Below the pieces are notes generated by a model, which was given only the letters and a program-made list of their open reading frames with translations, ran no database searches and had not been told where the DNA came from. Of a DNA stretch of 44,891 bases, positions 1,702 through 31,508 are shown in pieces. A program made the translations under genes and the position numbers. The DNA comes from a virus. The stretch lies in the UHGV virus genome UHGV-0435695; one strand, 5' to 3'. Positions within the stretch are counted from its first letter, which is position 1; each line of letters opens with the position of its first letter.

Positions 1702-1704
1702 CCT

Positions 1705-2385: not shown

Positions 2386-2406
2386 AGCACAGGGCTGGTG
2401 ATATAT

Positions 2407-17472: not shown

Positions 17473-17835
17473 TTATCGTTTCTTTTTTCTTTGTTCAACT
17501 TTTGATGCTTCATCCAATATTCTAGATGAGTCAAATATGTGACGCTTTTCAATAATTTGAGAAGCATTAGATACTTTTAATAATACTTCTTTTAGCTGTT
17601 TACCTATTTCTTGCAAAGATTCAATTTCATTTTGATATTTTTTTTGAGCGCTGGGATACTTCTTTATCCTTTCATTAGCTAAATCAATATTTCTATTGAT
17701 AGTATCAATAGCATTATTTCTGATTTGTTCGGCCCATTTAACTTGTTTTTCTGAACCTTTTAAAGTTGGCAGTCCTTTAAAAGATATTTTCTGGTTTTTG
17801 AAAGATAATCCACTCGTTCCCCCTCTACCACTCAT
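17473..17835 (-). CDS. Hypothetical protein
   Basis: Start MSGRGG, with a GAGGT RBS. Confidence 0.45.
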   Translation of the reverse strand: MSGRGGTSGLSFKNQKISFKGLPTLKGSEKQVKWAEQIRNNAIDTINRNIDLANERIKKYPSAQKKYQNEIESLQEIGKQLKEVLLKVSNASQIIEKRHIFDSSRILDEASKVEQRKKKR

Positions 17836-18466
17836 TGCATAATACCTCATTAAACCTTTCTGTAAACGCCCGCACCCTCACGATATTTCCCATGCACTCG
17901 TCTGGCACGGTGCCGTAGAAGATAATCGTTTCCGGGCTTAACCGCCGCACCATTTCCTCATAGCCCGACAAAAACAGCGCTTTCTTTTCCTTGCTGTTCA
18001 TCACACCCACAGACGATACTGCCACAGCTCCGCCCTCTGGCTCTCCGTCAAAGCACCATGCAAAGCTATCCTGCGTACTCCATGAGATTGTGGGAATGAC
18101 TTGTATTTCCGCTTCTTGCAGATATGCGCCTACCCAGTGTTTGCGGTAGTGGTTGTATATCTGGATGGTTTTGGGAAAGTCGGTGTAGGTTGAGAAGTCA
18201 GGCGACATCACATAACGAAACCTCTGCAACATGGGTATGTATCGGTCAATATTCATCCAAATCCTGTTGAATTGGTAATCATCAAGGAAGAAATGCACGC
18301 CTTTCTTTTCCGGCTCCTTGCACGTCTTAGCAAAGTTGAAACCAATCCAGTCACAGCCGCCCTCATAGGTCACTGGCCCTATCTGCGGTATGCCATATTC
18401 TCCCACGCCGTCAAATATCCGGCGTTCCAGATTTTCATAATTACGGCGATTCCGGTAATTACTCAT
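17825..18466 (-). CDS. DUF4417 domain protein
   Basis: KGVHFFLDDYQFNRIWMNIDRYIPMLQRFRYVMSPDFS matches the DUF4417 core. Confidence 0.55.
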   Translation of the reverse strand: MSNYRNRRNYENLERRIFDGVGEYGIPQIGPVTYEGGCDWIGFNFAKTCKEPEKKGVHFFLDDYQFNRIWMNIDRYIPMLQRFRYVMSPDFSTYTDFPKTIQIYNHYRKHWVGAYLQEAEIQVIPTISWSTQDSFAWCFDGEPEGGAVAVSSVGVMNSKEKKALFLSGYEEMVRRLSPETIIFYGTVPDECMGNIVRVRAFTERFNEVLCNEW

Positions 18467-18726
18467 TTTGTTGCCTGCTTATATATCTGGTTCACACCCG
18501 TAGCCGCCAGTCCAGACACCATCCCCACAGCCACAGCGTTGATATAATCTGCCGCCGGGAAATCCGGCATGATGTTCATTCCCAGCACGCCCAGCATGCC
18601 GCCACATACCGCCATAATGACAGGAATCCACTCATCTGGGATTTTCTGTGCAGCCTTACAGCCTAAGCCGATAACGTAGCAGATAGCCACGATAGCCATG
18701 CATGTTCCTAATGTTGTAATGTCCAT
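18463..18726 (-). CDS. Small 3-TM membrane protein, holin-like
   Basis: 87 aa. TM segments are ITTLGTCMAIVAICYVIGL, WIPVIMAVCGGMLGVLGM and YINAVAVGMVSGLAATGV, followed by a charged C-terminus. Confidence 0.4.
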   Translation of the reverse strand: MDITTLGTCMAIVAICYVIGLGCKAAQKIPDEWIPVIMAVCGGMLGVLGMNIMPDFPAADYINAVAVGMVSGLAATGVNQIYKQATK

Positions 18727-19453: not shown

Positions 19454-20473
19454 TTATCCGTTGGAAATAATCTGACCGATACGGATGTTCTTTGCCTTGT
19501 ATGCAAGCTCCCAGTTAGCCTTGTTTCCAAGTTCTGTCTTGGTCGGGGATTCCCCGGAAATGCTTGCAACCTTGAGATTGAAGCCGTTCGGATGCAGTAC
19601 ACGGCCTTCCTTGGTATACAGTTTCTCGATACCTGCCTTTGTCTCCGCATCATAGTCTGTGTAATACGGCTCGTTGTAATTGGTCTTCTCTGCCGTCAGG
19701 ATGGCACCCTGTCCCACGATTGTGGTGATGTACTTCGGGACATCACCGGATGCATCCACCGTGAACCGGTCAGACACTACCGGGATGAGGCCGTTGATTG
19801 TCGGGAGGTTGACCTCCGATGTCATGGCATTCTGGATGGTGTACTTGTTATAGTTCACAAGCCCCATTGCCTGGTATCTCGCAAATATGAGTGAGTTCAT
19901 GATTGCGATTCCGAAACCGTTCGCCATGTCCCCAAGGGCCTTCTGCTGCGCATAAATCATGGTCGTTTCGTCAATCCTGTTGGCATCCTGTACGCTGCTC
20001 CCATCCGAAAGGGCAATGTTATATACATGGTCCTTCATCGAATCCAGCCCCATGACCGCATTCACGATGTTCATGAGTTCGGCCTCCCATACCTGCCGGT
20101 AATAGTCGGACACGCTGTTTGCGATATGCTGAATCGGGTCCGCCCCGGTAAGCTCCTTCGTGAAGTCCTGCGCTTTCCATGCCATCATCCTCTGAATCAG
20201 CATGGCGGTCTGCTTTCCGCCGCTAATCTCCTTCGGCGTGTTGTTCGTGTTACCATCATTGTTGTACGGCTCATAGTCTGCAATGTCCATTGCCTTATAG
20301 AATGGCAGTGTAGCAACATTACCCTCGGAACCGATGAGGTTCATGATGGTGCTGTCCTGCTGGAGTATGCCGGATGCGATGATTGCATTGCTCCATGTGG
20401 GCTGCTCCGACATATAATCGGAAAATACTTCCGGGTCAAATGCAAACCCTCCAAATGTACCTGTTCTTGGCAT
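19454..20473 (-). CDS. Major capsid protein
   Basis: 339 aa, directly after the scaffold gene; N-terminus MPRTGTFGGFAFDPEVF. Confidence 0.7.
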   Translation of the reverse strand: MPRTGTFGGFAFDPEVFSDYMSEQPTWSNAIIASGILQQDSTIMNLIGSEGNVATLPFYKAMDIADYEPYNNDGNTNNTPKEISGGKQTAMLIQRMMAWKAQDFTKELTGADPIQHIANSVSDYYRQVWEAELMNIVNAVMGLDSMKDHVYNIALSDGSSVQDANRIDETTMIYAQQKALGDMANGFGIAIMNSLIFARYQAMGLVNYNKYTIQNAMTSEVNLPTINGLIPVVSDRFTVDASGDVPKYITTIVGQGAILTAEKTNYNEPYYTDYDAETKAGIEKLYTKEGRVLHPNGFNLKVASISGESPTKTELGNKANWELAYKAKNIRIGQIISNG

Positions 20474-20479: not shown

Positions 20480-21100
20480 TTATCCTTTCATACTGTTATA
20501 GAGTTCCGGGTTGCTGTTCTTGAGCGCAATCCTCTCGTCAAGGCTCATTCCCTTCCAATCCGCTTTTGTTAATTTTCCTGCGCTTCCGCTTTTGCCGGCC
20601 GGGACCGTGAACCTCGCCATGTTCTGTTGTGCCTGTTGCTGTGCATCATCAACAAACGCCGAAGCATCTTTTTCTTTCATTTGAGATAAAAGGTCATTCA
20701 GCCCCAGGATTTTACCATCTTTTAGCTTTAAATCGGCCTCTTTTACTTCTGCCATAATTGCACGTTTAGCTGCCTCGCTGGAAAATTTAATGCCTTCAAA
20801 TTCTGTTTTAAGCGCATCCGCAAAATCACGTTCATAAAGCTGTGCCTGGGCGTTTTTTTCGGCTTCTGTAGCTTTCTGTTTCCAATCAGACAGTTCTTTC
20901 TGCATCGTCTCCAGGTCAACCCCTTCAAAGCCTTTCAGCGTTGTTTCTGCTGCTTCTGCTTTTTCTTTCCAAGTATCCCGTTCCGATGTCAGATTGTCGT
21001 TTTCTTTCTGCAACTTTTTGAGGTCTTTCCCATTTTCAGCCATGACAAAAGATATCTGTTCCTCTGTTAATCCCTGTGCTTTTAATTCTTCAGTTTTCAT
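20480..21100 (-). CDS. Scaffolding protein
   Basis: Highly charged coiled-coil, 206 aa, preceding the capsid gene. Confidence 0.7.
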   Translation of the reverse strand: MKTEELKAQGLTEEQISFVMAENGKDLKKLQKENDNLTSERDTWKEKAEAAETTLKGFEGVDLETMQKELSDWKQKATEAEKNAQAQLYERDFADALKTEFEGIKFSSEAAKRAIMAEVKEADLKLKDGKILGLNDLLSQMKEKDASAFVDDAQQQAQQNMARFTVPAGKSGSAGKLTKADWKGMSLDERIALKNSNPELYNSMKG

Positions 21101-21362
21101 TGATGATTCTCCTTTTCCGTTATTAGGTTATTTGTAGGTGTGTAACCGTCCACCAACGGTTTGCCATTTTGTAGGACTTGGCGTGTCCCAAAACGCACAT
21201 GCCGGAAATTGCATCCGCTTTTCAACCTCCAGGCTGTTTACGCTAAGCGTTAGAACCTGTTTCTTTTAAGGACATGTGCTATAGGAAGGAGGTCAAATAT
21301 AAGAAAAAGCCACACAAACTACATTGCTGTAATCTGTATGGCTCTGCGACTGGCGACTGGCT

Positions 21363-21533
21363 CTAATTAATGTTTTGCATTTTTTTTATTTCATTTCCAT
21401 ATATATCCATTACAGTTGTATTCCTGCACTTTGGACAAAACACAGGTAAATTCTTGGCTTCGGTATCTTTTCTTATTTTTGTTCTTGTCTTATTATTACA
21501 TATAGGGCAGTATACCCAACCATCCTTGACCAT
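21363..21533 (-). CDS. Cysteine-rich KTR-family small zinc-ribbon protein
   Basis: Contains CPICNNKTRTKIRKDTEAKNLPVFCPKCRNT. Start MVKDGW, with an AAGGTG RBS. Confidence 0.6.
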   Translation of the reverse strand: MVKDGWVYCPICNNKTRTKIRKDTEAKNLPVFCPKCRNTTVMDIYGNEIKKMQNIN

Positions 21534-21615
21534 GTTTTCACCTTTTCTGTTTATTCCTATTTTCATTTTACCGTATTATCGAAAAAAAATCGTCCCCACA
21601 TTTTAATATTCCCTC

Positions 21616-21644
21616 TTGACTTTCCACGCATTGCGTGGTATGAT
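21616..21644 (+). promoter_or_regulatory. Sigma-70-type promoter: TTGACT, 17-nt spacer, TATGAT, with a perfect 7-bp inverted repeat in the spacer (likely operator)
   Basis: The -35 is at 21616-21621 and the -10 at 21639-21644. The palindrome CCACGCA-T-TGCGTGG (21624-21638) sits in the spacer, about 35 nt upstream of the plus-strand 4-gene operon. Confidence 0.6.
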
Positions 21645-21679
21645 ATATACATAAGATAAATACACAGGGGGATACAAAA

Positions 21680-21991
21680 ATGATGAAGAGAACAGAGAAT
21701 ACAAAGGAAATTAGAAACGAACTAAACGGATATAATATCCTGGTAGACCGGGCTGACTACCATAAAATTATTGCTTTTATGTTTACACAGGAAATGACCG
21801 GAACCGAGAAACAGGCGGCATATGCAAAAGATATTCTGGCCCAGAAGGTTTTTAAGACAGACGAAATGGCCGGAATGATGATATCAACGGGCAAGATGGA
21901 TGCACAGAGTTACACAGCCGGAATGGAAAGCCTTATCAGTCAGTTGAGCCAAATGACTGATGCCAAATATATCATAGAACATGTTAAATAA
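21680..21991 (+). CDS. Hypothetical protein, first gene of the plus-strand accessory operon
   Basis: ORF with a GGGGGA RBS. Confidence 0.5.
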   Translation: MMKRTENTKEIRNELNGYNILVDRADYHKIIAFMFTQEMTGTEKQAAYAKDILAQKVFKTDEMAGMMISTGKMDAQSYTAGMESLISQLSQMTDAKYIIEHVK

Positions 21992-22002
21992 GGAGGACGT
22001 TA

Positions 22003-22418
22003 TGAACAGAATTAAAGAGTACCGTACGAAAACCAATATGACACAATCTGATTTATCTTATTACCTTGGTATACCAAAAAGGACCATAGAGGATTGGGAG
22101 GTCGGGAAACGGAACCCGGCTCCCTGGGTCGAAGAATTAATCATCAGACAATTGGAGGAACTTATTCATCCATGTTTGATGAAAAAACTTTTAAATAGGT
22201 TTTCAGATTTGGCCTATGAAAAACTGCTTCCAGAAAACTATAATGTGTTTTCTGATGACCGCAAATTCTCTCATGATGATTATTTTAAAATCATACATGA
22301 CGAAATGGCAAAAATAGGAGTTGAGGACAGCGATTATGAGTACTGTCCGAAAAGCATTGACCCCAATTACCTAAAGAATGTACGAGCCGGGCGGGAAATA
22401 CATGAAACCATATTATAG
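22003..22418 (+). CDS. XRE-family HTH protein with a C-terminal domain of unknown function
   Basis: HTH segment TNMTQSDLSYYLGIPKRTIEDWEVGKRNP; the RBS is AAGGAGG. Confidence 0.6.
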
Positions 22419-22431
22419 GAGGAATATCAAT

Positions 22432-22722
22432 ATGAAAACTTTTAAAGGATACATAAATTATGGATGTTTGGCTGCTGAGAAAATCCCTTTGTTTACTGCG
22501 GAAAATCCTCACCCAACAGCAATAGTCAGCGAGGCGGTAGAGTATACAGTACCGGAAGGATGGGGCTGCGATGAAACGGAAACTGGCATTGTATTGACAG
22601 CTCCGTGGGGTTGGACTTATACATCGAACGAGCTGCTGCAAGGGAAAGAATCACCCTATCTATGTGTAATCAACAAAGAAGGAAAAGAAATCCATATTAT
22701 GTTAGATTGGAATCATATTTAA
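22432..22722 (+). CDS. Hypothetical protein
   Basis: RBS TAGGAGG, start MKTFKGY. Confidence 0.5.
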   Translation: MKTFKGYINYGCLAAEKIPLFTAENPHPTAIVSEAVEYTVPEGWGCDETETGIVLTAPWGWTYTSNELLQGKESPYLCVINKEGKEIHIMLDWNHI

Positions 22723-22737
22723 AGGAGAGAAAAATAA

Positions 22738-23090
22738 TGAATAAAAATACCGAACTTAGAAGGGAAGCTTTGAAAATCATTGAAGGCAGAAAAGAAAAAG
22801 ATATATATGACGCTGATTTGCTCGATAGCGACTGCCGATATACTACCGTTTTAGTTGATGGAGTAAATTACAGGATTTACATGGTTGGTAATGATGAGTG
22901 TTTTGATTTAGATGAGTTTTATCAATACGGCATTACTGATGATAACCATTTATTAAAATTTTATTTTGATTTACCGGAAGGTTTAGACGATTTAGGAAAT
23001 GTGGATTATGACCACGCATATCGTGTGGTTGATGTCACAAAAGAATGGGAATATACTGATTTAGGAGATTTTTTAGGTGATTTAGAGTAA
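22738..23090 (+). CDS. Hypothetical strongly acidic protein
   Basis: RBS AAAGGAGAG. About 33 Asp/Glu against about 12 Lys/Arg in 117 aa. Confidence 0.5.
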
Positions 23091-23296
23091 ATTGGAGAAA
23101 ATATTATGAAAAAAATATCGCTAACTCATAATGAGAAAACGATATTTTTTGATTTGTAACTAATAACAAATAAGCTAATATTTCAATCCACACCGCTCAA
23201 TTTGGGGAACAGTGACCAGTATCAGCCCCATACACCGATACTTTATGGGATAATAATATATCTTTTGTCCTTATTTGTCAAGATAATATTCGGTTT

Positions 23297-23728
23297 TTAT
23301 ACAATTTCTGCCAGCTTTTTAATTTGCCGTTGGATTTCTTTGCGCTCGTCCACGAAATCAGAATCTATCACCATAGAGGACAGCATATCGTAGACCTCTA
23401 CCATCAATCGCCCGACGGCCTCCATCAGTTTATCTTTATGCGCTTGGTCTCCGTTGGTCTGGTAAACCTGCTTTGCAGACAAATAGGCGTCATAGAGCTT
23501 ATCTACATTGTGGTCATATCTCCCGTTGGAATATTTTTTGATAACGCTCTCAGCGGCCTCTGCCATGACCGGGGCTACAGGCCACGTTTCGTCACGCATA
23601 CATTCCAGATTATGGATTGTGGTCGTCAGTTTGAAAATGGCGTCAAGGTTACTGGCCGTAAGCTTTTCCTTTGCGTTCTTCATTTCAATGTCAAGCTGTT
23701 TCCGCATGACTTCAATCATCTTTTCCAT
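23297..23728 (-). CDS. Hypothetical protein
   Basis: ORF. Confidence 0.45.
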   Translation of the reverse strand: MEKMIEVMRKQLDIEMKNAKEKLTASNLDAIFKLTTTIHNLECMRDETWPVAPVMAEAAESVIKKYSNGRYDHNVDKLYDAYLSAKQVYQTNGDQAHKDKLMEAVGRLMVEVYDMLSSMVIDSDFVDERKEIQRQIKKLAEIV

Positions 23729-24314
23729 GTTCTCCCTCCTTCGCCATATTCTTATATTTGTCGTGGATTTCTTTTTGGCTTTCTACAATGTAAATCATAT
23801 CGTAGCCTGTTGAAATCAGGTCAAGGATAATGCGCTCAACCTTTTTCAGCTCTTTATCCACATCTTTCACTAGACAATCCACAAAGATAGCGTCCGCCTC
23901 ATGCCCGGTTTCCCGCAGTTTGACCGCATATCTTTCATAGACGGTCTTTGTTTCTGCCTCCCAAGCATGATAAGCATTGAAGCCGTCCTCAACTGCTTTC
24001 TGTTTTGTGGCGCGGCCTACACTGATACGGTTTGCAGTCAGCCATGCCGCCGGAATCATTTTTACTTCGCCGGAAAAGCTATCAAACAGTAACTTTCCGT
24101 GATGATTAATATAGTACCGGCTCACACAAAGGTTTTTTTTGCTTTCACAGAGATATTGATACTCATGCATGCGTTTGTATCCACGCAAACCCAGAAAGTC
24201 AAAATAATCTGACATTTGACGGTGGAACATCAGCGCGGCAATCTGCCGAAAATTGATTTCGTTATAAATTTCTTCTACCGTCTGAGCCTCCATATTGCTT
24301 TTAAAATTAATCAT
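23712..24314 (-). CDS. Hypothetical protein
   Basis: ORF overlapping the next one by 17 nt. Confidence 0.45.
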   Translation of the reverse strand: MINFKSNMEAQTVEEIYNEINFRQIAALMFHRQMSDYFDFLGLRGYKRMHEYQYLCESKKNLCVSRYYINHHGKLLFDSFSGEVKMIPAAWLTANRISVGRATKQKAVEDGFNAYHAWEAETKTVYERYAVKLRETGHEADAIFVDCLVKDVDKELKKVERIILDLISTGYDMIYIVESQKEIHDKYKNMAKEGEHGKDD

Positions 24315-24336
24315 CCGAAAGACCTCCTTTCAGTGA

Positions 24337-24753
24337 TTATGCCAGCCGCTTAATGATGATATTTGCATCCTTAACCAACGCGGCAACGGAAGGGGAAACA
24401 TTTCCGACAGTAATCGTTTTAGATGCGCCGCAAGGAACACGGATTAACGTACTTACAGAAACACTCTGGAATGTATTTGCAGTAACAACGGTATAATCCA
24501 TTTCGGTACCTCCAATCGCTTCTCCGTTAGAGCGTATTGCAAGTGCGGTAGCTCCTGCCGCCGTTGCTGAAACATTGGCGTTAAATTCTACTTCATAAAT
24601 ACCCGGCTTTGCAAGCACGAACTGGCCACTTCCAGCATCATGCTGAATAGCTCCACCGCATCCACAAGCGTTTGTTCTTACTCTGTCCGTTGCGAACAAT
24701 ACGTTTTCATTAACTGCTACGGTCTGCTGACCAATCCCTATTGAATTTATCAT
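24337..24753 (-). CDS. BclA C-terminal-domain-like (C1q/TNF-like fold) protein without a collagen stalk
   Basis: Ends ...VGNVSPSVAALVKDANIIIKRLA, resembling the BclA C-terminal-domain ending ...SASIIIEKVA. Beta-rich, 138 aa. Confidence 0.45.
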   Translation of the reverse strand: MINSIGIGQQTVAVNENVLFATDRVRTNACGCGGAIQHDAGSGQFVLAKPGIYEVEFNANVSATAAGATALAIRSNGEAIGGTEMDYTVVTANTFQSVSVSTLIRVPCGASKTITVGNVSPSVAALVKDANIIIKRLA

Positions 24754-24820
24754 AATTTTCTCCTTTCACATTCGGAGAGGGATAGACTTACCACGTCTAC
24801 CCCTCTCCGATATCGCAAGA

Positions 24821-25039
24821 CTACTGTGTAGATATGGATTCTTCCAACATGCGTATGATTTTCTTTTGATTTTCAATGATTTCCTTGAAATACTTTTCCT
24901 CTTGAATTTGTAGTTCCGCCATGATATCTGAATTACTGGCCTGCGATAAATCAGACTGATAATTCATTACTTGGAGAAATATTCCAAACAGATTAAGCAT
25001 ATCAAGGGTGGACAAATTTCTATCCATTAACATCCGCAA
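24821..25039 (-). CDS. Hypothetical small protein
   Basis: ORF. Confidence 0.35.
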   Translation of the reverse strand: MRMLMDRNLSTLDMLNLFGIFLQVMNYQSDLSQASNSDIMAELQIQEEKYFKEIIENQKKIIRMLEESISTQ

Positions 25040-25650
25040 GAATTACCGCATCCGCCATAGTTATAAGCGAAATATGGGCTGCACGTTAAGTACGCCGGTT
25101 TTGGTGTCGGCTGCAATGTGCTGATAATGTTTGCGCTCTGTGCCTGCTGGCTAAGCTGGAAGTTTGCAGTAGACAAATCTCTGTCACGCTCAGCTAAACG
25201 GTCTCTTAAATCCTGAATGGTATTTGCCTGAATTAAACCGCGGGTAGCCTCTCCCTCCGCATGGATAGCGGTTTTCAAATCACAGCAGCAATTTGAAAGC
25301 TGCGCCTGTAAGGTCTGCGCCTGAAGCGCTGCATCATACCGGCTCTGTAAAATCTCTTTCTGAGTTTCGCAGCAACAAAGTTGATTTGTATACCGATTCT
25401 CTAAAACATCACGCTGAGTCTGGCAAGCGGTGTTAGATACATTTTGATTAGTATTGAAGATATCGCGCTTAATGAACTCCTCTGATACAAGCGGGCTTTC
25501 TGCGCCGTAATTACCGCCCCAGTTGCCACGGAACAGAAATGCAAGCAGAATAATCCAAATCCAAGCACCATTGCCAAATCCGTCATAACCATCATTTCTG
25601 GTCACTGCCGCAACATCAGCAGCGGACAGTCCCATTGTTCCTTCTGTCAT
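25027..25650 (-). CDS. Hypothetical membrane-anchored coiled-coil protein with CCC triplets and a Cys/Gly-rich C-terminus
   Basis: N-terminal TM segment GAWIWIILLAFLF, glutamine-rich coiled-coil containing CCCETQ and CCCDLK, and a C-terminus YNYGGCGNSCGC. Confidence 0.45.
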   Translation of the reverse strand: MTEGTMGLSAADVAAVTRNDGYDGFGNGAWIWIILLAFLFRGNWGGNYGAESPLVSEEFIKRDIFNTNQNVSNTACQTQRDVLENRYTNQLCCCETQKEILQSRYDAALQAQTLQAQLSNCCCDLKTAIHAEGEATRGLIQANTIQDLRDRLAERDRDLSTANFQLSQQAQSANIISTLQPTPKPAYLTCSPYFAYNYGGCGNSCGC

Positions 25651-25706
25651 GTTGGTTTTCTCCTTATCATTTATTTATCAAAACCGCCGGCCGGACAGTC
25701 TTAATA

Positions 25707-25958
25707 TCATTTCATCATGCCAAGTATCTGCTGGGGATTTACCCCGTTTGCCTGGCACTGCTCCATAAATACCTGTTGGGGATTCTTCCCCTGGCACATA
25801 TCCATAGCTTTTTTAATCGCTGGGTCTGACTGCGCCATGCTCTGTATCATGGCCGCCGGATTGCCCGAATTTTTCAGCATACCCATCATTTGCGCCAGCC
25901 CGCCCATTGCGTTCATCGGGCCGCCTCCACCCAATATTCCCATTAACGGATTACTCAT
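25707..25958 (-). CDS. Hypothetical small Gly/Met/Gln-rich protein
   Basis: ORF. Confidence 0.4.
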   Translation of the reverse strand: MSNPLMGILGGGGPMNAMGGLAQMMGMLKNSGNPAAMIQSMAQSDPAIKKAMDMCQGKNPQQVFMEQCQANGVNPQQILGMMK

Positions 25959-26388
25959 TAGTGGTTTCTCCTTTCTGTATTGGCTCGCCTAATTTCGCCA
26001 GCAGGGCGTTAAATTCATCACGGGTGACATACTTACCATCCATATTCACAGGAGCCGCCTGCGGGGCTGTGAGTGCGTCTGGGGTCACTTCCTCGAATCG
26101 AAACGCCTTTAATGTCGCCGTCCCCATACCATCTACAGACTTTACATAAAAAAGCGGCGCATTATTATCCATCATCCACGCTGTTCCACCGGGCTGAACA
26201 ATTTGATTTCTGGCCCCCTCAATGTCCGCTACTTGAATCCAGTTTACATTTGGCTGTGCCGGGGCTTGCGGCATCGGTTGAAACTGCTGTTGCATACTCT
26301 GTAACTGCTGAATCCGGTTCTGAATGTCCGCCGGATTGTTCAACCCTGCCGGGAGCATACCGGGAGTATATGGCATATATCCGTTCAT
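25951..26388 (-). CDS. Hypothetical protein with a Pro/Gln-rich N-terminus
   Basis: ORF; conserved-looking core WIQVADIEGARNQIVQPGGTAWMMDNNAPLFYVKSVDGMG. Confidence 0.45.
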   Translation of the reverse strand: MNGYMPYTPGMLPAGLNNPADIQNRIQQLQSMQQQFQPMPQAPAQPNVNWIQVADIEGARNQIVQPGGTAWMMDNNAPLFYVKSVDGMGTATLKAFRFEEVTPDALTAPQAAPVNMDGKYVTRDEFNALLAKLGEPIQKGETTNE

Positions 26389-26504
26389 GGAAACCTCCTA
26401 TGACTAAATTCTAAGACTAATTGTGTCTTTATATAGTTAAATTATGGCATAAAAAATAAGCCTCTGACAGGTCATCAAAGACTTATAAAAGTATCACGCA
26501 AGTA

Positions 26505-26705
26505 TCAGCATACACGTATTATTTTGTTGTTTACTTTTCTGCTCAATCGCTTTGCTGTAGAGACACTGACATTCATTAATTCAGCGCAATGTTCCAAAGG
26601 ATAGTTCTTGGCCCGGTACTCAAACAATGACCGTTCTTCATCTGTGAAGTTACAATATATACGAAAATAATTTAGTTCTGGCACTGTGAAATCGTATACT
26701 TTCAA
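26505..26705 (-). CDS. Small sigma-70 region-4-like HTH protein, a possible late-gene regulator
   Basis: FTDEERSLFEYRAKNYPLEHCAELMNVSVSTAKRLSRKV resembles a region-4 / LuxR-type HTH. Confidence 0.45.
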   Translation of the reverse strand: MKVYDFTVPELNYFRIYCNFTDEERSLFEYRAKNYPLEHCAELMNVSVSTAKRLSRKVNNKIIRVC

Positions 26706-26716
26706 GAAAATTCTCC

Positions 26717-27019
26717 TTACTGCGTCTGCGCAAGGTATGAAATGAGCTTGTCTCTCGTTTTTTTTAACTGCTCCACGTTATTTCCGGAAATCTGGCTGTT
26801 GAGCATAGTAACCAGCGTTTCCATTATAAGGCTGTCCCGCTCCTTAATCTCCTTCATGGCCTCATAATCTCGCCTGTCATGCCGTTCTAGCGTTTCCACC
26901 CGGTCATTCAGTTTTATTGCTGGAGATATCCAATTATGTATGACTGCCACCGCACCACCGATAATGGAAATACCGCCACAGATAGCCAGGATTGTCTGTA
27001 TTATTTCCATTGCGCCCAT
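26717..27019 (-). CDS. Hypothetical N-terminal-TM, C-terminal coiled-coil small protein (BhlA/UviB-like architecture)
   Basis: TM segment MEIIQTILAICGGISIIGGAVAVI followed by a charged helical tail. Confidence 0.4.
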   Translation of the reverse strand: MGAMEIIQTILAICGGISIIGGAVAVIHNWISPAIKLNDRVETLERHDRRDYEAMKEIKERDSLIMETLVTMLNSQISGNNVEQLKKTRDKLISYLAQTQ

Positions 27020-27025
27020 TAAAAT

Positions 27026-28258
27026 TTACTCTCCTTTCGCATTCTGATACCGCCGCGCTGCTCCCCTGGCCCTTGCGGCTTGTTCCCGGTTCCATCTTGC
27101 AATCTGTAACCGTTCCTGCTGGGTGCGCAAGTTGTTCATTTTACAAAATTCGTTGTATGCCTTATTCTGCCGCTGTAGCAGATAAGATTTCCTGTCAAGC
27201 GTTTGTTGTAACTCAAGCCTTGACACATCGTCCTGGCATTTCTTCACAGCCTCTTGTAGCCCCATGACTTCCCGCTTAGTCTTGCGGACACGACGTTCAA
27301 GTGAACGTTGTCGCTGCTCTACTTCATACACTTTCCGGTTTTCTTCTGTGTCTATTGTGTCATATGGATTATTCTCTCCATCCCCCGGTCCAAAACTATG
27401 CCTGCAATTTACTCCACATAATCCAGTAATATCCCCATATCCAGTAGAATAATAGAAATCAGGAAACCTATGTCCGTATTGTGGAAGGCTGTAAAATTGT
27501 CCTTGCCAAAGTTCATGATTCTCTGGTATTCCTCCAATATTTCTTGCGCCTACATGTGCAGACACAAGCACGACTTCCCATTTCATTTCTTCCATGCGCT
27601 TTAATGTTATCTGTGCTGTTGCCTGTGATATACCTGTCCGCACAGCCCGCGCCGTAGCTGTTTCTATCGTGTCATTTCTTATGTCTCCAGTATTTTTACT
27701 TCTATACTGAATAAGAGTAATATCCCCACTGGCCACATTTTCTACAGCCTCTTTAACTGCTTGTGTATAAGATGTTGCTCCATTCATAACTTTGTTATAG
27801 GCCATATCGCACTCGTTAATAAATAATCTTTGAGCAGATTGCGCCGTTGTCCTAGTGTAGTTTTTCCATTCCCCCAGCGTTGCCCGATAATTCCGCTCCA
27901 TCAGCCGGATAAGTGCCGGGGATTGCGTCAGCGGCATGGGAGACAGGCCGGCAGCCTGGTATATCTTATCGTCATATTCAAGTGCTTTTATCCCGGCCTC
28001 CTCCATAGCCGCTTTAATCTCTTTTTCCTGCCGCTTGGTATACTTGGATAACTCTGCTGTTATATCCTCCAGCAGATACCCTGCGTCTTGCAATACCTGT
28101 ATGCGCCAGCGGTCGGATGATGTCAGCATGTAATCATCACCCCGTCCTATGCGTATTATCATACGGTCTACTATCTGCCGAATGACGTACTCGTGTAATT
28201 CAGAAGCTATCTGTTCCGTACCGTCTGCTATTTGTTGGAGGTAATGAGGGTCAAGCAT
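27026..28258 (-). CDS. Phage minor head / head morphogenesis protein (SPP1 gp7-like)
   Basis: 410 aa, directly downstream of the portal gene, with a basic coiled-coil C-terminus. Confidence 0.65.
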   Translation of the reverse strand: MLDPHYLQQIADGTEQIASELHEYVIRQIVDRMIIRIGRGDDYMLTSSDRWRIQVLQDAGYLLEDITAELSKYTKRQEKEIKAAMEEAGIKALEYDDKIYQAAGLSPMPLTQSPALIRLMERNYRATLGEWKNYTRTTAQSAQRLFINECDMAYNKVMNGATSYTQAVKEAVENVASGDITLIQYRSKNTGDIRNDTIETATARAVRTGISQATAQITLKRMEEMKWEVVLVSAHVGARNIGGIPENHELWQGQFYSLPQYGHRFPDFYYSTGYGDITGLCGVNCRHSFGPGDGENNPYDTIDTEENRKVYEVEQRQRSLERRVRKTKREVMGLQEAVKKCQDDVSRLELQQTLDRKSYLLQRQNKAYNEFCKMNNLRTQQERLQIARWNREQAARARGAARRYQNAKGE

Positions 28259-28261: not shown

Positions 28262-29692
28262 TTATTCCTCCTGGAAAAATCCCGGTTCTTCTTTCGGCTG
28301 TGCCTCGTCTACAAGTGCCCTTGCCTCTTCTTCAGTCATTCCCTCGAATTTCATCAGATAATACCAGAACGGTATGCGGTTCTGCACAGCGTAAGCATAC
28401 CATTGTTGCTTATCGGCCTCATGCGAATATGTAATGTCCCCAAAGTTATAGACAATCTCATAGTTTCCAGCCGGAGCTAGTCCGTAGAGGTCTGCATATA
28501 CCGACATGGCATAGATAGCACCGTCCAGACAGCTTTCCAGCTTATCCCGCACATCTTTGATAAACTGGATTGTGCGCTGTTGCTCCGCCTCTACACCCGT
28601 TGCTGTCTGTATTCCGGTAGATTCGTTGAAAACGAAATATCCGTTGCTGAAACCGCATTTATATCCAATCTGGGACAGCAGAGCATTAATCCCGGATAAT
28701 CGGGTATCTGTGTTAAGCTGCGGGTTAATTTCCTGGTAAAAGTCATTCGGGCTACTTCCAAACACATTTTTAACATAATGCGGAAGTTTCACATCTGCTG
28801 GGCCACGCTTGTTCAGGTTCTGCCCGCTGTCAAACATCAGCCTATCATCTGCAAGGATAATCTTTTCGCTGTCGAATATTTCTCCGGCGTTTCGGCTGTA
28901 CGCAATATCAAGGTCTTTCATTTCCTCTATAGCCTCCGCAAATACCGGCAGCCCCAGCGGAGATGATATGTCAACGTTGTTCGCCTGCGGTGTGCGGAAT
29001 ACCCCAAACATAGGCCCGTCAAGGCGCTCGTCCCCGCCCTTGATAATCGGCGGCGTGTCTGCCATGAGGTCAGCCCATTTGGTAGCAGTAAGGGCTACCG
29101 GGTCGCCCAGGGAATCGGAATGACGGGACACATAAGCCCGGTTACTGATGTAGTACGGATAGATAGGGCCGCTCTCGGTTTGCGTTTCCACGAACCTGTG
29201 ATATTCCAGGCGGGTATAATATTTGTCATTGTCGGCATAGCTGTCTTTAAAGACAATCCCCGTAATATTCCCGTTGCTGTCGCACTCCGTCACGAAGAAA
29301 TCAAACGGCGTGAACATATCAAAGCCGCCGTCATTAGGCTTGATGATAACCGTACCATATGCGCAACCGTACTCTACCCAGTGCCGCAGCTTGAAATATA
29401 CCTTGTCAATCTGTTCCTGTAACCACGTCGCCCTTGCACTGCCGCCAATCTGTACCTTAATCGCCAGCGTTGCAAGTCTGGCCGTTTCGGAGCATACAGC
29501 CTTTGCGAAATTGATGGTCTTGATATTATCCTCTGTGCTTACCCACGCCGGGACGCCCAGGTAAATGTCGGCGCACTTTGAAATGACTGCCTCCATCGCC
29601 GGGGAAGTAATATCCTTTACATCAAAATCTTTCTCTGCCCTGTTTTTGAATATCATGCCTATCCACCTTTTTACTGTTGCTATCAGTCCCAT
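28262..29692 (-). CDS. Portal protein
   Basis: 476 aa, immediately after TerL, with an acidic C-terminus. Confidence 0.8.
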   Translation of the reverse strand: MGLIATVKRWIGMIFKNRAEKDFDVKDITSPAMEAVISKCADIYLGVPAWVSTEDNIKTINFAKAVCSETARLATLAIKVQIGGSARATWLQEQIDKVYFKLRHWVEYGCAYGTVIIKPNDGGFDMFTPFDFFVTECDSNGNITGIVFKDSYADNDKYYTRLEYHRFVETQTESGPIYPYYISNRAYVSRHSDSLGDPVALTATKWADLMADTPPIIKGGDERLDGPMFGVFRTPQANNVDISSPLGLPVFAEAIEEMKDLDIAYSRNAGEIFDSEKIILADDRLMFDSGQNLNKRGPADVKLPHYVKNVFGSSPNDFYQEINPQLNTDTRLSGINALLSQIGYKCGFSNGYFVFNESTGIQTATGVEAEQQRTIQFIKDVRDKLESCLDGAIYAMSVYADLYGLAPAGNYEIVYNFGDITYSHEADKQQWYAYAVQNRIPFWYYLMKFEGMTEEEARALVDEAQPKEEPGFFQEE

Positions 29693-29696: not shown

Positions 29697-29885
29697 TCAC
29701 CCAATCTTATCCGCTATTTTTTCTCCTATCCAAAACGCAATATCAAATGCACAAAAAATTAACAGGAGAAATAATACCAACGGCCATAAAAGCAGCGGAA
29801 GTGCTGAAGGATTTCCATTTACTTGCATAGCCCAAGAAAAAATAGTCCCGATTAGCAAATAAATCAAAATCAATATGTAAATCAT
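29697..29885 (-). CDS. Small 2-TM membrane protein
   Basis: ORF that is hydrophobic throughout. Confidence 0.35.
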   Translation of the reverse strand: MIYILILIYLLIGTIFSWAMQVNGNPSALPLLLWPLVLFLLLIFCAFDIAFWIGEKIADKIG

Positions 29886-31153
29886 GCGCTGTTTCCTCTC
29901 CTCATTGACAGTGGGCTTGTGGCGTACCGCAGGGCGTCTATCCAGTGGTTGTTGTGGTCTGGATAATCTGCAATCACTTCCCCGTTGCTGTCTACTTCAT
30001 GCTCATATTCTATAATTTCCTTGTACGCTCTCGGCGTTCTGGACGGGTCTATAACGATTGTCCGGCACTGTAGCCATTCAAAGGTATATTTCACGCTGCC
30101 CGGCCCAACGTTGGCTTGTCTTGCCGGAAGTCCAGCGTCCCGGAAGTCTACAATGCTTTCCTGTTCATCAGCGCCACAGCGGATTTCATAATCATCATAG
30201 CCCTTTTCCTTTATATCCTCTGCCATTTTGCTGTTGCGGATTTTACAGCCGCCCAGCTCGTCCAGCAGATAGATTGTTTCGGTATTATGGATATACGCCG
30301 CCCGGATAAAGGCTTTCGGGTCGGGATACCAGCCCCAATCTTGTCCTTGATAAATGCGCTCCATGCGGCTGATTTCCTCATCTGTAATCTCACGCACATC
30401 CAGCATGTCAAATATGTTTGTTCCAAGTCCAACCGGCCGGCCGAGATACTCGTGCTCATAGGCTCTCGGATTGGTAGCTTTCAGATGTTCCGCATCATCA
30501 ATAAACTGTTGCCCCAGCCATTCCCCCGGCACGCTTGTATAATCGCTATTGTGCCGGTAGCTGTCCTCTCTCGGCTCATTAACGTACACATTCGCCCAGT
30601 TGCTGCGACTGATGGGCGGGTTGAACGATTTGAAAACCGCAAACTTGCTGCCGCCACGGAGAACAGATTGTTGCACTGTTCGGATTTCTTCAATCCCAGC
30701 GAACTCATCCAATTCCTCAAACCATAGGTACTTAAAATAGCCCCGGCTCGTCTTGATGGACTTTGTTTTCTTTGCCTTATCCAGCCCTCGGAAGATGATT
30801 TTCTGTCCGGTAGGCTTATATACATACTGCATGGGACTTACGCTTGACGCCCACAGGTCATTTGACCCAAGCGCGTCAATCGCCCATGCAATCTGCTCAA
30901 AGACGGATTCCCTTAGGGTGTTTCCGACCTTACGGAACACTACCGCATTGCTGAAAACTCCGTCTTTTGCGTCCTGCATCATACCCAAGACAATTTCTAT
31001 CGATATAAAAGAGGACTTCGTTGACCCTCGCCCGCCGTACAGGTCATAATATGTATGATTACTGTCCAGGATATCCCAGTGAACGGTATAGAAGGATGGG
31101 GCGATTACATCAGTCAGATTTATTGTTGTCTGGTCTTGGTATGTTGTTGACAA
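29882..31153 (-). CDS. terL: Terminase large subunit (PBSX/XtmB-like)
   Basis: Walker A-like GGRGSTKS; 423 aa, following TerS. Confidence 0.85.
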   Translation of the reverse strand: MSTTYQDQTTINLTDVIAPSFYTVHWDILDSNHTYYDLYGGRGSTKSSFISIEIVLGMMQDAKDGVFSNAVVFRKVGNTLRESVFEQIAWAIDALGSNDLWASSVSPMQYVYKPTGQKIIFRGLDKAKKTKSIKTSRGYFKYLWFEELDEFAGIEEIRTVQQSVLRGGSKFAVFKSFNPPISRSNWANVYVNEPREDSYRHNSDYTSVPGEWLGQQFIDDAEHLKATNPRAYEHEYLGRPVGLGTNIFDMLDVREITDEEISRMERIYQGQDWGWYPDPKAFIRAAYIHNTETIYLLDELGGCKIRNSKMAEDIKEKGYDDYEIRCGADEQESIVDFRDAGLPARQANVGPGSVKYTFEWLQCRTIVIDPSRTPRAYKEIIEYEHEVDSNGEVIADYPDHNNHWIDALRYATSPLSMRRGNSA

Positions 31154-31508
31154 TGGTAATCCCGCCGCCCTCCTGCTTCTTGTCTGTATCTATTTTACGC
31201 TTTGCCAGTTCCACCGCCGCTTTGGTCCTCTCTGCCAAAGGAGCATCAAGGCCGAATTGGTCTTTTACTTCTCCTCGCATTACAGACGTAAGGTATTGCA
31301 ATATTTCAGCAGCATCAGCTATGCGGCAATCATCAATCTGTTTCTGTCGCTCAGAGATATATGCAGAAACCGTAGGCTTCCGTAAGTTTTCACGTCCTAT
31401 TGCGTCTGCTGTCCGTAAGCTGTAACCAGCCTTTCTCGCAGCTTCTGCCGCATTTCCACATTCTATGTAATAATCTGCAAACGCTTTCTGCTTTGGTGTA
31501 AGCTCCAC
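31110..31508 (-). CDS. terS: Terminase small subunit (Terminase_2 family)
   Basis: Begins MELTPKQKAFADYYIECGNAAEAARKAGYS. Confidence 0.8.
   Translation of the reverse strand: MELTPKQKAFADYYIECGNAAEAARKAGYSLRTADAIGRENLRKPTVSAYISERQKQIDDCRIADAAEILQYLTSVMRGEVKDQFGLDAPLAERTKAAVELAKRKIDTDKKQEGGGITIVNNIPRPDNNKSD

What the first reader, a model, noticed from the sequence alone, without database searches (positions are those of the whole stretch)
21101..27020. A ~6 kb accessory-gene island inserted between the minor-head and scaffold genes of the head module
In SPP1/A118-like siphoviruses the minor head protein and scaffold genes are nearly adjacent. Here they are separated by about 15 small genes in both orientations, and I recognise no virion function among them. 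The island contains a KTR zinc-ribbon protein, a plus-strand 4-gene operon with its own promoter and operator, two overlapping unknown proteins, a BclA-C-like protein, a CCC-motif membrane coiled-coil protein, Gly/Met- and Pro/Gln-rich proteins, a region-4-like mini-regulator and a BhlA-like TM protein. This is the best candidate location for an undescribed phage-carried system, for example superinfection exclusion, counter-defence or host-surface remodelling.
Basis: partly seen in the sequence, partly recalled or inferred. Interest (0 to 1): 0.7.

Follow-up and report, generated by a model that had tools for sequence, protein, structure and literature searches.

The report
Portable unknown-function phage gene cassette
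The 6 kb gap between two head genes of this gut-bacterium prophage is not random cargo: its core is a self-contained cassette of seven genes with no enzyme and no known function, shared by thousands of gut phages, and next to it sits a small, truly variable add-on operon.

Summary
A Phage_min_cap2 gene (27026-28258) and a Phage_scaffold gene (20480-21100) are 5.9 kb apart, with 14 small genes between them. In Listeria phage A118 the same two genes are 79 bp apart.

The region has three layers, not one island.
1. g100TM and g66r4 end the packaging operon.
2. A seven-gene cassette runs from 26388 to 23297: PQ-rich, Met-rich, CCC coiled-coil, g72, BclA_C-like, ferritin-like and g143. It has its own covarying terminator hairpin, promoter-like element and downstream terminator-like repeat.
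3. A low-GC, variable part holds a plus-strand XRE operon and a KTR zinc ribbon.

The cassette is present, in order, in every one of about 115 related Lachnospiraceae phages and prophages whose sequence reaches that far. It is replaced as a unit independently of the capsid gene. It also occurs at other genome positions in Clostridium perfringens, Butyrivibrio and lemur and rodent gut phages, and its CCC gene occurs in a crAss-like phage. Five isolated C. perfringens phages carry a clean deletion of it, so it is dispensable there.

No Pfam, PHROG, PADLOC or PDB match assigns a function. My best guess, at low confidence, is a moron-type accessory unit that builds a non-enzymatic protein assembly acting in the cell. 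The main rival is a non-essential virion accessory.

The parts
27026..28258 (-). Left flank: minor head protein (SPP1 gp7 / Phage_min_cap2 type)
   Evidence: Pfam PF06152, E 2.4e-71. It is 88-95% identical in the closest relatives.
26717..27019 (-). g100TM: 100-aa protein with an N-terminal transmembrane helix and a coiled coil carrying a conserved ISGNNxExLKKTR motif. It belongs to the upstream packaging operon and partners the cassette in this lineage only.
   Evidence: It is the only protein of the region that passes the hydropathy scan. Homologues sit at the same place in about 100 loci. No Pfam, PHROG, NCBIfam or PADLOC family was found. It is replaced by a 35-37% identical allele in L002-L010.
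26505..26705 (-). g66r4: 66-aa helix-turn-helix protein resembling sigma-70 region 4. It is the last gene before the cassette terminator and is a candidate regulator of the cassette promoter (inferred).
   Evidence: Sigma70_r4_2 E 0.011, below cut-off; phrog_1190 sigma factor 2e-6. It stays 92-94% identical in phages whose cassette is only 26-41% identical. At nucleotide level it is conserved at 88%, together with the element downstream of it.
26441..26507 (-). Cassette control element. It holds the direct repeats TGATACTT/TGATACTTTT (26487-26507), a hairpin (26456-26486), a T run, a -35-like CTGTCA (26465-26470) inside the 3' arm of the hairpin, and an extended -10-like TGcCATAAT (26441-26449).
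   Evidence: Terminator-like and promoter-like sites were found. The element lies directly upstream of the PQ gene in nearly all loci, even where extra genes sit between g66r4 and PQ. RNAalifold on 16 distinct sequences gives 10 pairs, 6 of them with compensatory changes. The repeat occurs once in the window against 0.04 expected.
25951..26388 (-). g145PQ: a Pro/Gln-rich N-terminus with a helix, a small conserved alpha/beta domain (residues 47-100), and a C-terminal helix. First gene of the cassette.
25707..25958 (-). g83GM: 83-aa Gly/Met/Gln-rich protein with a conserved KNPQQ helical C-terminus
   Evidence: Homologues lie in the same position in 81 loci. The type-B counterpart belongs to phrog_22984, 3e-22. 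No Pfam family.
25027..25650 (-). g207CCC: the signature protein. It has a conserved N-terminus (LSAADVAAVTRN), a Gly/Trp-flanked hydrophobic stretch of 12-13 aa, long helices with two CCC triplets (one invariant in all ten distant homologues, both invariant in closer ones), RPxPxPAY...SPY, and a Gly/Cys tail.
   Evidence: Alignments are. phrog_9288 and phrog_16490, unknown function. 3268 homologues from the single-sequence search and more than 7997 from the profile search, all 'hypothetical'. The AF2 model has long helices at pLDDT 44. A crAss-like homologue matches phrog_16490 at 4e-46.
24821..25039 (-). g72: small protein with a hydrophobic N-terminal helix, a conserved NY..DLSQxSN.DIM.EL motif and a helical C-terminus. 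The true start is probably an internal ATG.
   Evidence: Homologues occur in 52 loci and in C. perfringens phages at 43% identity, E 1e-10. No family hit.
24337..24753 (-). g138Bcl: stand-alone BclA_C (C1q/TNF-like) beta-sandwich protein with conserved Cys near both ends and no collagen repeats
   Evidence: PF18573, 6.7e-11, above the gathering score. phrog_20016, 8.6e-17. In some other lineages an unrelated Cys-rich beta protein replaces it.
23712..24314 (-). g200: ferritin-like helical protein whose ferroxidase ligands appear lost. Present only in type-A cassettes and in the C. perfringens and Dulem 36 versions.
   Evidence: A profile against PDB matches ferritins at E 1.2e-5, over query residues 13-77. 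The homologue in phiCP39-O is annotated 'contains ferritin domain'. Pfam itself gives no hit.
23297..23728 (-). g143: helical protein of phrog_28802. Other cassette types carry an Arg/Tyr/Gly/Asp-rich disordered insert in the middle. Last gene of the cassette.
   Evidence: phrog_28802, 1.7e-9; the type-B homologue gives 1.3e-70. Alignment. No PDB match and no relation to g200.
23110..23150 (.). A-run, 20-nt inverted repeat, T-run, lying between the convergent cassette and plus-strand operon. It looks like a bidirectional terminator.
   Evidence: the repeat finder pair I1, 85% complementary. The role is inferred from the sequence only.
21680..23090 (+). Variable four-gene plus-strand operon: p103 (21680-21991), p145 XRE-type HTH (21981-22418), p114 (22378-22722) and a protein of about 117 aa (22737-23090).
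   Evidence: HTH_3, 4e-7. The other three have no family. GC is 0.33-0.41 against 0.42-0.51 for the cassette. The operon is present, partial or absent among close relatives.
21616..21644 (+). Promoter-like site of the plus-strand operon (TTGACT-17-TATGAT, TG-extended) with the palindrome CCACGCA-T-TGCGTGG (21624-21638) in the spacer. It looks like an operator.
   Evidence: The palindrome was read directly from the sequence.
21363..21566 (-). KTR zinc-ribbon protein, usually the last gene before the scaffold gene in this lineage
   Evidence: PF14205, 1.7e-19. The same position is seen. GC 0.30.
21306..21345 (-). Terminator-like hairpin after the KTR gene
   Evidence: 18-pair stem followed by a T-rich tail.
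20480..21100 (-). Right flank: scaffolding protein, followed by the major capsid protein (19454-20473)
   Evidence: PF06810, 5e-28; Gp13-like, 1.4e-5.

Best explanation
**Shown.** The region is a layered junction between head genes.
1. g100TM and g66r4 end the terminase-portal-minor-head operon.
2. A conserved hairpin plus T-run follows. Overlapping it is an extended -10 promoter-like site preceded by GATAC repeats.
3. From there run seven co-directional genes: PQ, GM, CCC, g72, BclA_C-like, ferritin-like and g143. They end at a bidirectional terminator-like repeat.
4. The variable XRE operon and the KTR gene come next, then the scaffold gene.

The seven genes behave as one portable unit. They keep their order across phage lineages. 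They are swapped as a block between otherwise near-identical phages. They sit at different genome positions in other lineages. They are deleted in viable C. perfringens phages.

**Inferred.**
- The cassette is a moron-type accessory transcription unit that can be expressed independently of the late head operon. g66r4 may bind the GATAC repeats to control it.
- Its products, none of them an enzyme, assemble into one multi-protein structure built around the CCC protein, a long Cys-rich coiled coil with a short hydrophobic, probably membrane-interacting, segment.
- The Met-rich GM and Gln-rich PQ proteins would act as assembly partners or holdases.
- The trimeric C1q/TNF-like protein would bind the Pro/Cys-rich tail of the CCC protein.
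- The helical proteins would act as adaptors.
- I take the structure to act in or on the infected or lysogenic cell, as a protective, exclusion or envelope-associated function, rather than as a required part of the capsid.
For: **Conserved order and place.** Seen in all of the roughly 100 IMG/VR relatives whose sequence reaches the region. Also seen in 13 of 13 GTDB genome hits, all Lachnospiraceae prophages apart from one bin labelled Odoribacter splanchnicus, and in the C. symbiosum-type contigs.

**Own control element.** It carries covariation and always lies directly upstream of PQ. Terminator-like repeats lie downstream. A similar hairpin plus TGTGCAAAAAT element, or a terminator hairpin, precedes the cassette in Dulem virus 39 and in C. 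perfringens phages.

**Block replacement.** Nucleotide similarity to L002, L004, L005 and L009 stops at 26426 and resumes at 22733 or about 21600-21660. Meanwhile mincap2, g66r4 and the scaffold stay conserved, and the capsid gene too where the same type is kept (for example 99% in L004). Cassette proteins fall to 26-41%.

**Other genome positions.**
- Early region of C. perfringens phages.
- After the tail or lysis genes in Dulem 36 and Butyrivibrio phage Ceridwen.
- Next to the integrase in Dulem 39.
- Between the portal side and the capsid gene in Bajarodcaudo virus 2.
- Next to lysis genes in crAss-like cr53_1.

**Dispensable.** phiCP39-O, 26F, 13O, 34O and 9O match the 17DYC flanks at about 96%. 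CCC is undetectable in them by tblastn. In phiCP39-O, the one aligned base by base, a deletion of about 2.1 kb runs from the cassette's upstream terminator into the g143-like gene. These are isolated virulent phages (PMC3118219).

**No enzyme or known family.**

**A holin and an endolysin lie elsewhere.**
Against: - No experiment or expression data exist. The promoter and terminators are pattern matches, although conserved ones.
- A seven-protein, non-secreted set is unlike known single-protein exclusion morons.
- Most products lack signal peptides. Only g100TM, which lies outside the portable core, has a clear transmembrane helix.
- The cassette is never absent in the Lachnospiraceae lineage. 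Its GC matches that of the head genes. In three lineages it sits inside the head block. All of this fits a particle-related role at least as well.
- It also occurs in apparently virulent phages and in a phage of Bacteroidota. That argues against a purely lysogenic-conversion role or one specific to a single envelope type.
- PADLOC gives no hit.
Confidence: 0.4

Rival explanations
1. The cassette encodes a non-essential virion accessory. This would be a capsid decoration, a fibre, or a set of internal or ejected proteins, comparable in status to T4 Hoc/Soc or the T4 internal proteins. It would be made in bulk from its own promoter. Cysteines would cross-link or bind metal once particles leave the anaerobic cell.
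For: - It sits between the portal/minor-head genes and the scaffold/capsid genes, on the same strand, in the Lachnospiraceae lineage and in Bajarodcaudo virus 2. In cr53_1 it lies next to genes annotated as virion proteins.
- All products are non-enzymatic and prone to oligomerise: a coiled coil, a C1q/TNF-like trimer fold, and a ferritin-like bundle.
- The genes have strong ribosome-binding sites and a GC like that of the head genes.
- It is universal in the lineage.
- It occurs in both virulent-type and temperate phages and across two host phyla, which suits a role independent of the host envelope.
- Being dispensable is compatible with a decoration role.
Against: - The cassette type does not co-vary with the capsid or scaffold type.
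- In C. perfringens phages and Dulem 39 it lies in early or lysogeny regions far from the structural genes.
- An insulating terminator plus a sigma-70-like promoter is not needed for a gene set that is simply late.
- There is no similarity to any PHROG 'head and packaging' family.
Confidence: 0.3
2. The cassette is a lysis or release accessory. This would be a spanin-like or lysis-timing complex that works together with the holin.
For: - The CCC protein has an N-terminal hydrophobic segment, a coiled coil with Cys residues, and a Pro-rich end, which recalls spanins.
- In cr53_1 the CCC gene lies two genes downstream of a holin and a weak Rz-like hit (phrog_89, E 0.0045).
- In Ceridwen the cassette follows the endolysin.
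- In many relatives the Phage_holin_5_2 gene lies between the portal and the minor head gene, close to the cassette.
Against: - The main hosts are monoderm, so there is no outer membrane to fuse.
- The window has a holin (18463-18726, PF16079, 1.3e-24) and an M15 endolysin (4523-5308) elsewhere.
- Phages lacking the cassette still lyse their hosts.
- The neighbourhood with lysis genes is not constant.
Confidence: 0.1
3. The cassette encodes spore-coat or exosporium-like proteins that change the spores of the lysogen or let the phage travel with spores.
For: - It includes a BclA_C domain.
- It includes Cys-rich, Tyr/Arg/Gly-rich, Gln-rich and ferritin-like proteins. From general knowledge, this mix recalls the composition of spore coat and exosporium.
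- Many hosts are Clostridia.
Against: - Full CCC homologues with neighbouring cassette-like genes occur in a crAss-like phage, family Suoliviridae. Cassettes also occur in phages of Butyrivibrio fibrisolvens. By general knowledge these hosts do not form spores.
- There are no collagen repeats and no exosporium-targeting N-terminus.
- No Pfam or NCBIfam sporulation family matches.
Confidence: 0.05
4. The region is just a heap of unrelated morons that piled up at a permissive junction.
For: - The junction does collect unrelated genes in relatives: N6 methyltransferase, HNH-like and Lar-like genes, and the XRE operon.
- It grows to 11 kb in some prophages.
Against: - Seven genes keep the same order in many distant phages.
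- They share one control element.
- They are replaced or deleted together.
Confidence: 0.05

Closest known systems
Phage morons embedded in late operons (lambda bor/lom, HK97 gp15 exclusion protein), from general knowledge
   Same: It has its own promoter-like site and flanking terminators inside a structural operon. It sits at a module junction. It is dispensable and is exchanged horizontally. It moves between genome positions in different phages.
   Different: It has seven co-evolving genes instead of one or two. It is never missing in a large lineage. It has no homology to any described moron product. Expression from the prophage has not been shown.
Hyperplastic internal-protein and decoration loci of T4-type phages (ipI-III, hoc, soc), from general knowledge
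   Same: Its products are non-essential and non-enzymatic, and it lies among head genes. Alleles are replaced as cassettes while neighbouring core genes stay conserved.
   Different: There is no sequence relation. There is no evidence for capsid targeting or for presence in virions. In some lineages the cassette lies in early regions.
BclA C-terminal domain / C1q-TNF-like trimeric beta-sandwich (Pfam PF18573)
   Same: g138Bcl passes the Pfam gathering score over most of the domain.
   Different: It is a stand-alone 138-aa protein without collagen-like repeats or an exosporium-targeting N-terminus. It is phage-encoded. In other cassette versions an unrelated Cys-rich beta protein takes its place.
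Ferritins (for example PDB 5ls9, 3kx9)
   Same: A profile of g200 homologues matches the first two helices of ferritins at E 1e-5. The phiCP39-O homologue is annotated as containing a ferritin domain.
   Different: Only the N-terminal 65 residues align. In that alignment, the positions I take from memory to be the ferroxidase Glu/His ligands are occupied by Arg, Ser, Lys or Asn. Pfam's own ferritin models do not match.
Spanins (Rz/Rz1-like)
   Same: The CCC protein and g100TM have an N-terminal hydrophobic anchor followed by a coiled coil. The CCC protein also has conserved Cys residues and a Pro-rich end. A crAss-like homologue lies near a weak Rz-like hit.
   Different: There is no spanin family hit for the window proteins. 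The hosts are monoderm. There is no lipoprotein partner. The cassette is dispensable for lysis.

Membership tests
Variable accessory island / moron cargo | Presence/absence polymorphism among close relatives | tested here: not met
   For the cassette 23297-26388 within this lineage, it is present in every relative whose sequence reaches it. The feature is met for 21680-23090, which is present, partial or absent. It is also met for the cassette in C. perfringens phages, through the deletion variants.
Variable accessory island / moron cargo | Own promoter and terminator inside a larger operon | tested here: met
   Met at the level of sequence patterns only. There is a conserved, covarying hairpin plus an extended -10 upstream and inverted-repeat terminators downstream. 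No transcript data exist.
Variable accessory island / moron cargo | Base composition unlike the surrounding genes | tested here: not met
   Cassette genes have GC 0.42-0.51 (g72 is 0.34), against 0.43-0.51 for head genes. The KTR gene (0.30) and the plus-strand operon (0.33-0.41) do differ.
BclA_C (PF18573) | Score above the Pfam gathering threshold | tested here: met
   42.6 bits against 38, residues 32-137.
BclA-type exosporium glycoprotein | Collagen-like GXX repeats and an N-terminal exosporium-targeting motif | tested here: not met
   The 138-aa sequence has no GXX repeat region.
Ferritin | Sequence similarity to the four-helix-bundle family | tested here: inconclusive
   The profile against PDB gives E 1.2e-5, but only for helices A and B. 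Pfam gives no hit. No structure was predicted for g200.
Ferritin | Conserved di-iron (ferroxidase) ligands | tested here: not met
   In the HMMER alignment, the positions I take from memory to be the ligands (numbering not checked against a reference) are Arg, Ser and Arg/Lys/Asn in g200 homologues. This was read by eye.
BhlA/UviB-type holin-like proteins | Match to the family model | tested here: not met
   There is no Pfam or PHROG hit for g100TM at E of 0.01-0.1 or better. The phage's holin is PF16079 at 18463-18726.
Sigma-70 region 4 HTH | Match to the family model above cut-off | tested here: inconclusive
   PF08281 gives 15.8 bits against a cut-off of 25.7. PHROG sigma-factor family gives 2e-6. 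TIGR02937 gives E 0.026.
Known anti-phage defence systems (PADLOC-DB 2.0) | Any component matching a defence-system model | tested here: not met
   Only generic HTH hits for p145 and weak zinc-ribbon hits for KTR were found, and nothing for the five cassette and flanking proteins scanned: CCC, BclA_C-like, g200, g143 and g100TM. PQ, GM, g72 and g66r4 were not scanned.
Phage head decoration / head-and-packaging families (PHROGs) | Match to an annotated structural family | tested here: not met
   The cassette proteins that match any PHROG family match only families of unknown function. The sole exception is a weak chance-level hit of g72 to a small terminase family, E 0.0027.
Virion component | Detected in purified particles | not testable with these tools
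   This needs proteomics of a cassette-positive phage.

The most novel reading that the evidence does not exclude
The 'CCC cassette' would be a previously undescribed functional module of gut phages that spans host phyla. Its seven non-enzymatic proteins would self-assemble into a cysteine-cross-linked coiled-coil and C1q-like structure. That structure would harden on leaving the reducing, anoxic cell, giving a redox-triggered protective or adhesive coat or fibre. It could sit on particles or on the infected cell. It would be controlled by its own mini-regulator and swapped between phages like an allele.
Probability: 0.15. Interest if true: 0.85.

Novelty: categorically new. Interest (0 to 1): 0.62.

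Why it matters
The signature CCC protein alone has more than 8000 sequence clusters in public genomes and metagenomes. The seven-gene module recurs in Lachnospiraceae prophages, C. perfringens phages and a rumen Butyrivibrio phage, and its CCC gene recurs in a crAss-like phage. Yet every copy is annotated 'hypothetical'.

A module this common, conserved in order and free of enzymes points to a piece of phage biology that has not been described. It may be a structure, an exclusion device or a particle accessory.

It can be tested now. Cultured phages carry it, and natural deletion variants exist in near-identical genomes. It also shows that a gap in a head module can hide a conserved functional unit rather than random cargo.

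Tried and rejected
**Searches that gave no function**
- Pfam, PHROGs, NCBIfam and PADLOC scans of all ORFs. Besides BclA_C, KTR and HTH_3 there were only unknown-function PHROGs.
- Megablast of the region against INPHARED phages found no close relative.
- The afdb50 fold library was not available.
- The AF2 model of the CCC protein had pLDDT 44, so I ran no fold search on it.
- Profile-against-PDB searches for PQ and g143 gave nothing. hhalign of g143 against g200 showed no relation.
- The genome-collection search with the diverse CCC alignment failed for lack of a conserved stretch. I repeated it with the PQ alignment.
- Literature searches for BclA/prophage/exosporium and for the C. perfringens phages found no description of the cassette. 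The virion-proteome paper on phiCP39-O and 26F is not held.

**Ideas rejected**
- A sporulation-specific function, because of homologues in a crAss-like phage and a Butyrivibrio phage.
- The canonical lysis cassette, because a holin and an endolysin were found elsewhere.
- An essential head-assembly role, because natural deletions exist and the cassette does not co-vary with the capsid gene.
- One random island, because gene order is conserved and the genes share one control element.

Full report
**1. The window and the observation**

The window is a complete temperate siphovirus-type prophage.
- Its morphogenesis genes are on the minus strand: TerS 31110-31508, TerL 29882-31153, portal 28262-29692, Phage_min_cap2 27026-28258, Phage_scaffold 20480-21100 and the capsid gene 19454-20473.
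- An M15 endolysin lies at 4523-5308.
- A repressor, an ImmA-like peptidase and an integrase lie at 850-4234 on the plus strand.

The exact CCC protein occurs in an NCBI MAG of Enterocloster clostridioformis. The 13 GTDB genome relatives found are Lachnospiraceae prophages, apart from one bin labelled Odoribacter splanchnicus, which I take to be contamination.

The minor-head and scaffold genes are 5.9 kb apart, with 14 ORFs between them, nearly all with good Shine-Dalgarno sites. In cultured phages with the same minor-head family the gap is much smaller: 79 bp in A118, about 790 bp in FP_Lugh and about 760 bp in phiCD111. The observation and its premise are therefore correct.

- KTR, BclA_C, the CCC motifs, the Gly/Met- and Pro/Gln-rich proteins, and the plus-strand promoter with its palindromic operator are confirmed.
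- 'Region 4-like' is weakly supported.
- 'BhlA-like' is not supported by any model.

**2. The region is not one island**

I ran tblastn of all window proteins against 106 IMG/VR loci. These were fetched either through the minor head protein or through the CCC protein.
- The nine minus-strand genes are g100TM, g66r4, g145PQ, g83GM, g207CCC, g72, g138Bcl, g200 and g143.
- They occur in the same order, on the same strand and at the same place in essentially every locus that extends far enough.
- g72, g200 and g143 are missing from some cassette types.
- The same holds for 13 GTDB genome hits and for contigs found by exact-protein look-up.

By contrast, the plus-strand operon (21680-23090) is present, partial or absent among the closest relatives and has low GC (0.33-0.41). 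The KTR gene also has low GC (0.30), but it is usually retained just before the scaffold gene.

Relatives carry other unrelated inserts at this junction: an N6 methyltransferase, an HNH-like gene and Lar-like zinc ribbons. The junction reaches 11 kb in some prophages. It is therefore a real hot spot for cargo, but a conserved core sits inside it.

**3. The core is a transcription-unit-like cassette**

Directly after g66r4, on the minus strand, the window has these features in order:
- two TGATACTT repeats (26487-26507);
- a 31-nt hairpin (26456-26486);
- a T run;
- TGcCATAAT (26441-26449);
- a -35-like CTGTCA inside the hairpin.

The same arrangement lies immediately upstream of the PQ gene in almost all loci. 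This includes loci where extra genes separate g66r4 from PQ.

On 16 distinct sequences RNAalifold finds 10 pairs, 6 of them with compensatory double changes. The repeat motif occurs only here in the window.

Downstream of g143, an A-run/inverted repeat/T-run (23110-23150) faces both the cassette and the convergent plus-strand operon. A further terminator-like hairpin follows the KTR gene.

A hairpin plus TGTGCAAAAAT element precedes the cassette in Dulem virus 39. A terminator hairpin precedes it in C. perfringens phages.

All of this is pattern evidence, not transcript evidence.

**4. The cassette moves and is replaced as a block**

In L002-L010 the flanks are close to the window:
- minor head 88-93% identical at protein level;
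- g66r4 92-94%;
- scaffold 80-98%;
- capsid up to 99% in L004.

Yet PQ, CCC and the BclA_C-like protein are only 26-41% identical. Here g200 is absent, and g143 is represented by a longer homologue rich in Arg, Tyr and Gly.

At nucleotide level, similarity ends at window position 26426, just past the promoter-like site. It resumes at 22733 or about 21600-21660. The cassette type is thus uncoupled from the capsid and scaffold type.

Recognisable versions of the module (PQ, GM, CCC, a beta protein, g72, and a ferritin-like and/or g143-like protein) also occur elsewhere:

| Phage | Position of the cassette |
|---|---|
| C. perfringens phages | between antirepressor and recombination genes |
| Dulem virus 36 | after the receptor-binding protein |
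| Dulem virus 39 | after the integrase |
| Bajarodcaudo virus 2 | between the portal side and scaffold/capsid |
| Butyrivibrio phage Ceridwen | after the endolysin and a terminator |

A full-length CCC homologue (phrog_16490, 4e-46) lies in the crAss-like phage cr53_1. Next to it are an Arg/Gly/Tyr-rich protein and a beta-rich protein, and the holin and a weak Rz-like hit are close by.

The family is very large. The CCC search gave 3268 hits with one sequence and more than 7997 with a profile. More than 500 further viral contigs matched a second motif set.

**5. The cassette is dispensable in at least one lineage**

Five phages match the 17DYC flanks at about 96% nucleotide identity but cover only 51% of the query. 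They are phiCP39-O, phiCP26F, phiCP13O, phiCP34O and phiCP9O.

In phiCP39-O, the one I aligned base by base, the sequence runs from just after the upstream terminator hairpin straight into the middle of the g143-like gene. That leaves a truncated 78-aa ORF and an intact ferritin-like gene annotated 'contains ferritin domain'.

CCC is undetectable in all five by tblastn. The truncation shows that this is a deletion, not an insertion in the others.

These phages were obtained by screening for virulent C. perfringens phages (PMC3118219). The cassette is therefore not needed to make infectious particles or to lyse cells in the laboratory.

**6. What the proteins are**
- None matches an enzyme family.
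- g138Bcl is a stand-alone BclA_C (C1q/TNF-like) domain.
- g200 resembles the first two helices of ferritins (E 1.2e-5) but appears to have lost the iron ligands.
- g207CCC is predicted as long helices. It has CCC triplets, a Pro-rich RPxPxPAY..SPY motif and a Gly/Cys tail. One triplet is invariant in all ten distant homologues, and both are invariant in closer ones. Its hydrophobic stretch is short.
- g145PQ has a confidently modelled small domain with no fold match.
- g83GM is Met/Gly/Gln-rich.
- g143 belongs to a family that often carries an Arg/Tyr/Gly/Asp-rich disordered insert.
- PADLOC finds no defence model.
- The phage's holin (PF16079, 18463-18726) and endolysin lie elsewhere.

**7. 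Interpretation**

The anatomy is that of a moron. It has its own control element, is insulated on both sides, is portable, is replaceable and is dispensable. What differs is that it has seven co-inherited genes that look like building blocks of one assembly.

I rank the readings as follows.
- **Cell-acting accessory assembly (protective, exclusion or envelope-associated): 0.4.** The insulation and the lack of coupling to the capsid genes favour this.
- **Non-essential virion accessory: 0.3.** Its universality in the lineage, its head-like composition, its position in three lineages and its occurrence across host phyla favour this.
- **Lysis-related role: 0.1.**
- **Sporulation-related role: 0.05.**
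- **A random heap of morons: 0.05.**

The function is inferred, not shown.

**8. Verdict**

It is far more widespread than a local island, and it matches no described system.

Noticed in passing
window 18463-18726 and 17825-18466 (minus strand): The holin (Phage_holin_5_2, E 1.3e-24) sits among the head-tail connector genes, next to a DUF4417 gene. It is about 13 kb from the endolysin (4523-5308). In many relatives the same holin lies between the portal and the minor head gene instead.
   Followed up: partly
window 26400-26430 (minus strand): Two copies of a TTAGTC(T/A)TAG motif lie between the -10-like site and the ribosome-binding site of the PQ gene. Similar repeats (TTTAGTCATA) occur in the type-C cassettes of relatives. 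This may be a second operator or a translational control site.
   Followed up: no
window 23253-23281 (minus strand): A near-consensus promoter-like site (TTGACA-17-TATTAT, 11 of 12 matches) lies just downstream of g143. It points into the bidirectional terminator-like repeat and runs antisense to the plus-strand operon. I have no explanation for it.
   Followed up: no
L125 (crAss-like cr53_1, NC_055889.1 38548-44628): Standard-code translation of these genes shows many in-frame stops, which fits stop-codon recoding in this phage. Read with the stops replaced, gp66 ('spike protein/glycoprotein') is a full CCC-family protein.
   Followed up: partly
L005 11227-11616, L011 11098-12118, L121 7400-9170, L211 7202-8155: Relatives carry different inserts between the minor head gene and the cassette. 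These include a conserved protein of about 125-136 aa with the motif 'RVGDCAIRA', an HNH/NUMOD-like gene, and an N6 adenine methyltransferase. The junction is a recurrent insertion site.
   Followed up: no
L003 4356-4670; L005, L006, L008, L010 and L019 (upstream of TerL): Homologues of the plus-strand gene p114 (34-70% identical) also occur upstream of the terminase genes in relatives. This small gene therefore moves on its own.
   Followed up: no
window 850-4234 (plus strand): The lysogeny module holds a CI-like HTH repressor, an ImmA/IrrE M78 peptidase, two unknown proteins (one with two transmembrane segments) and a tyrosine integrase with a TTG start. GC falls to 0.30 around 1500-3000.
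   Followed up: no
L126-L205 (IMG/VR contigs): In many contigs of about 35-60 kb from another lineage, the CCC gene lies within 1-2 kb of a contig end. In that lineage the cassette may sit next to the genome terminus or the prophage boundary.
   Followed up: no
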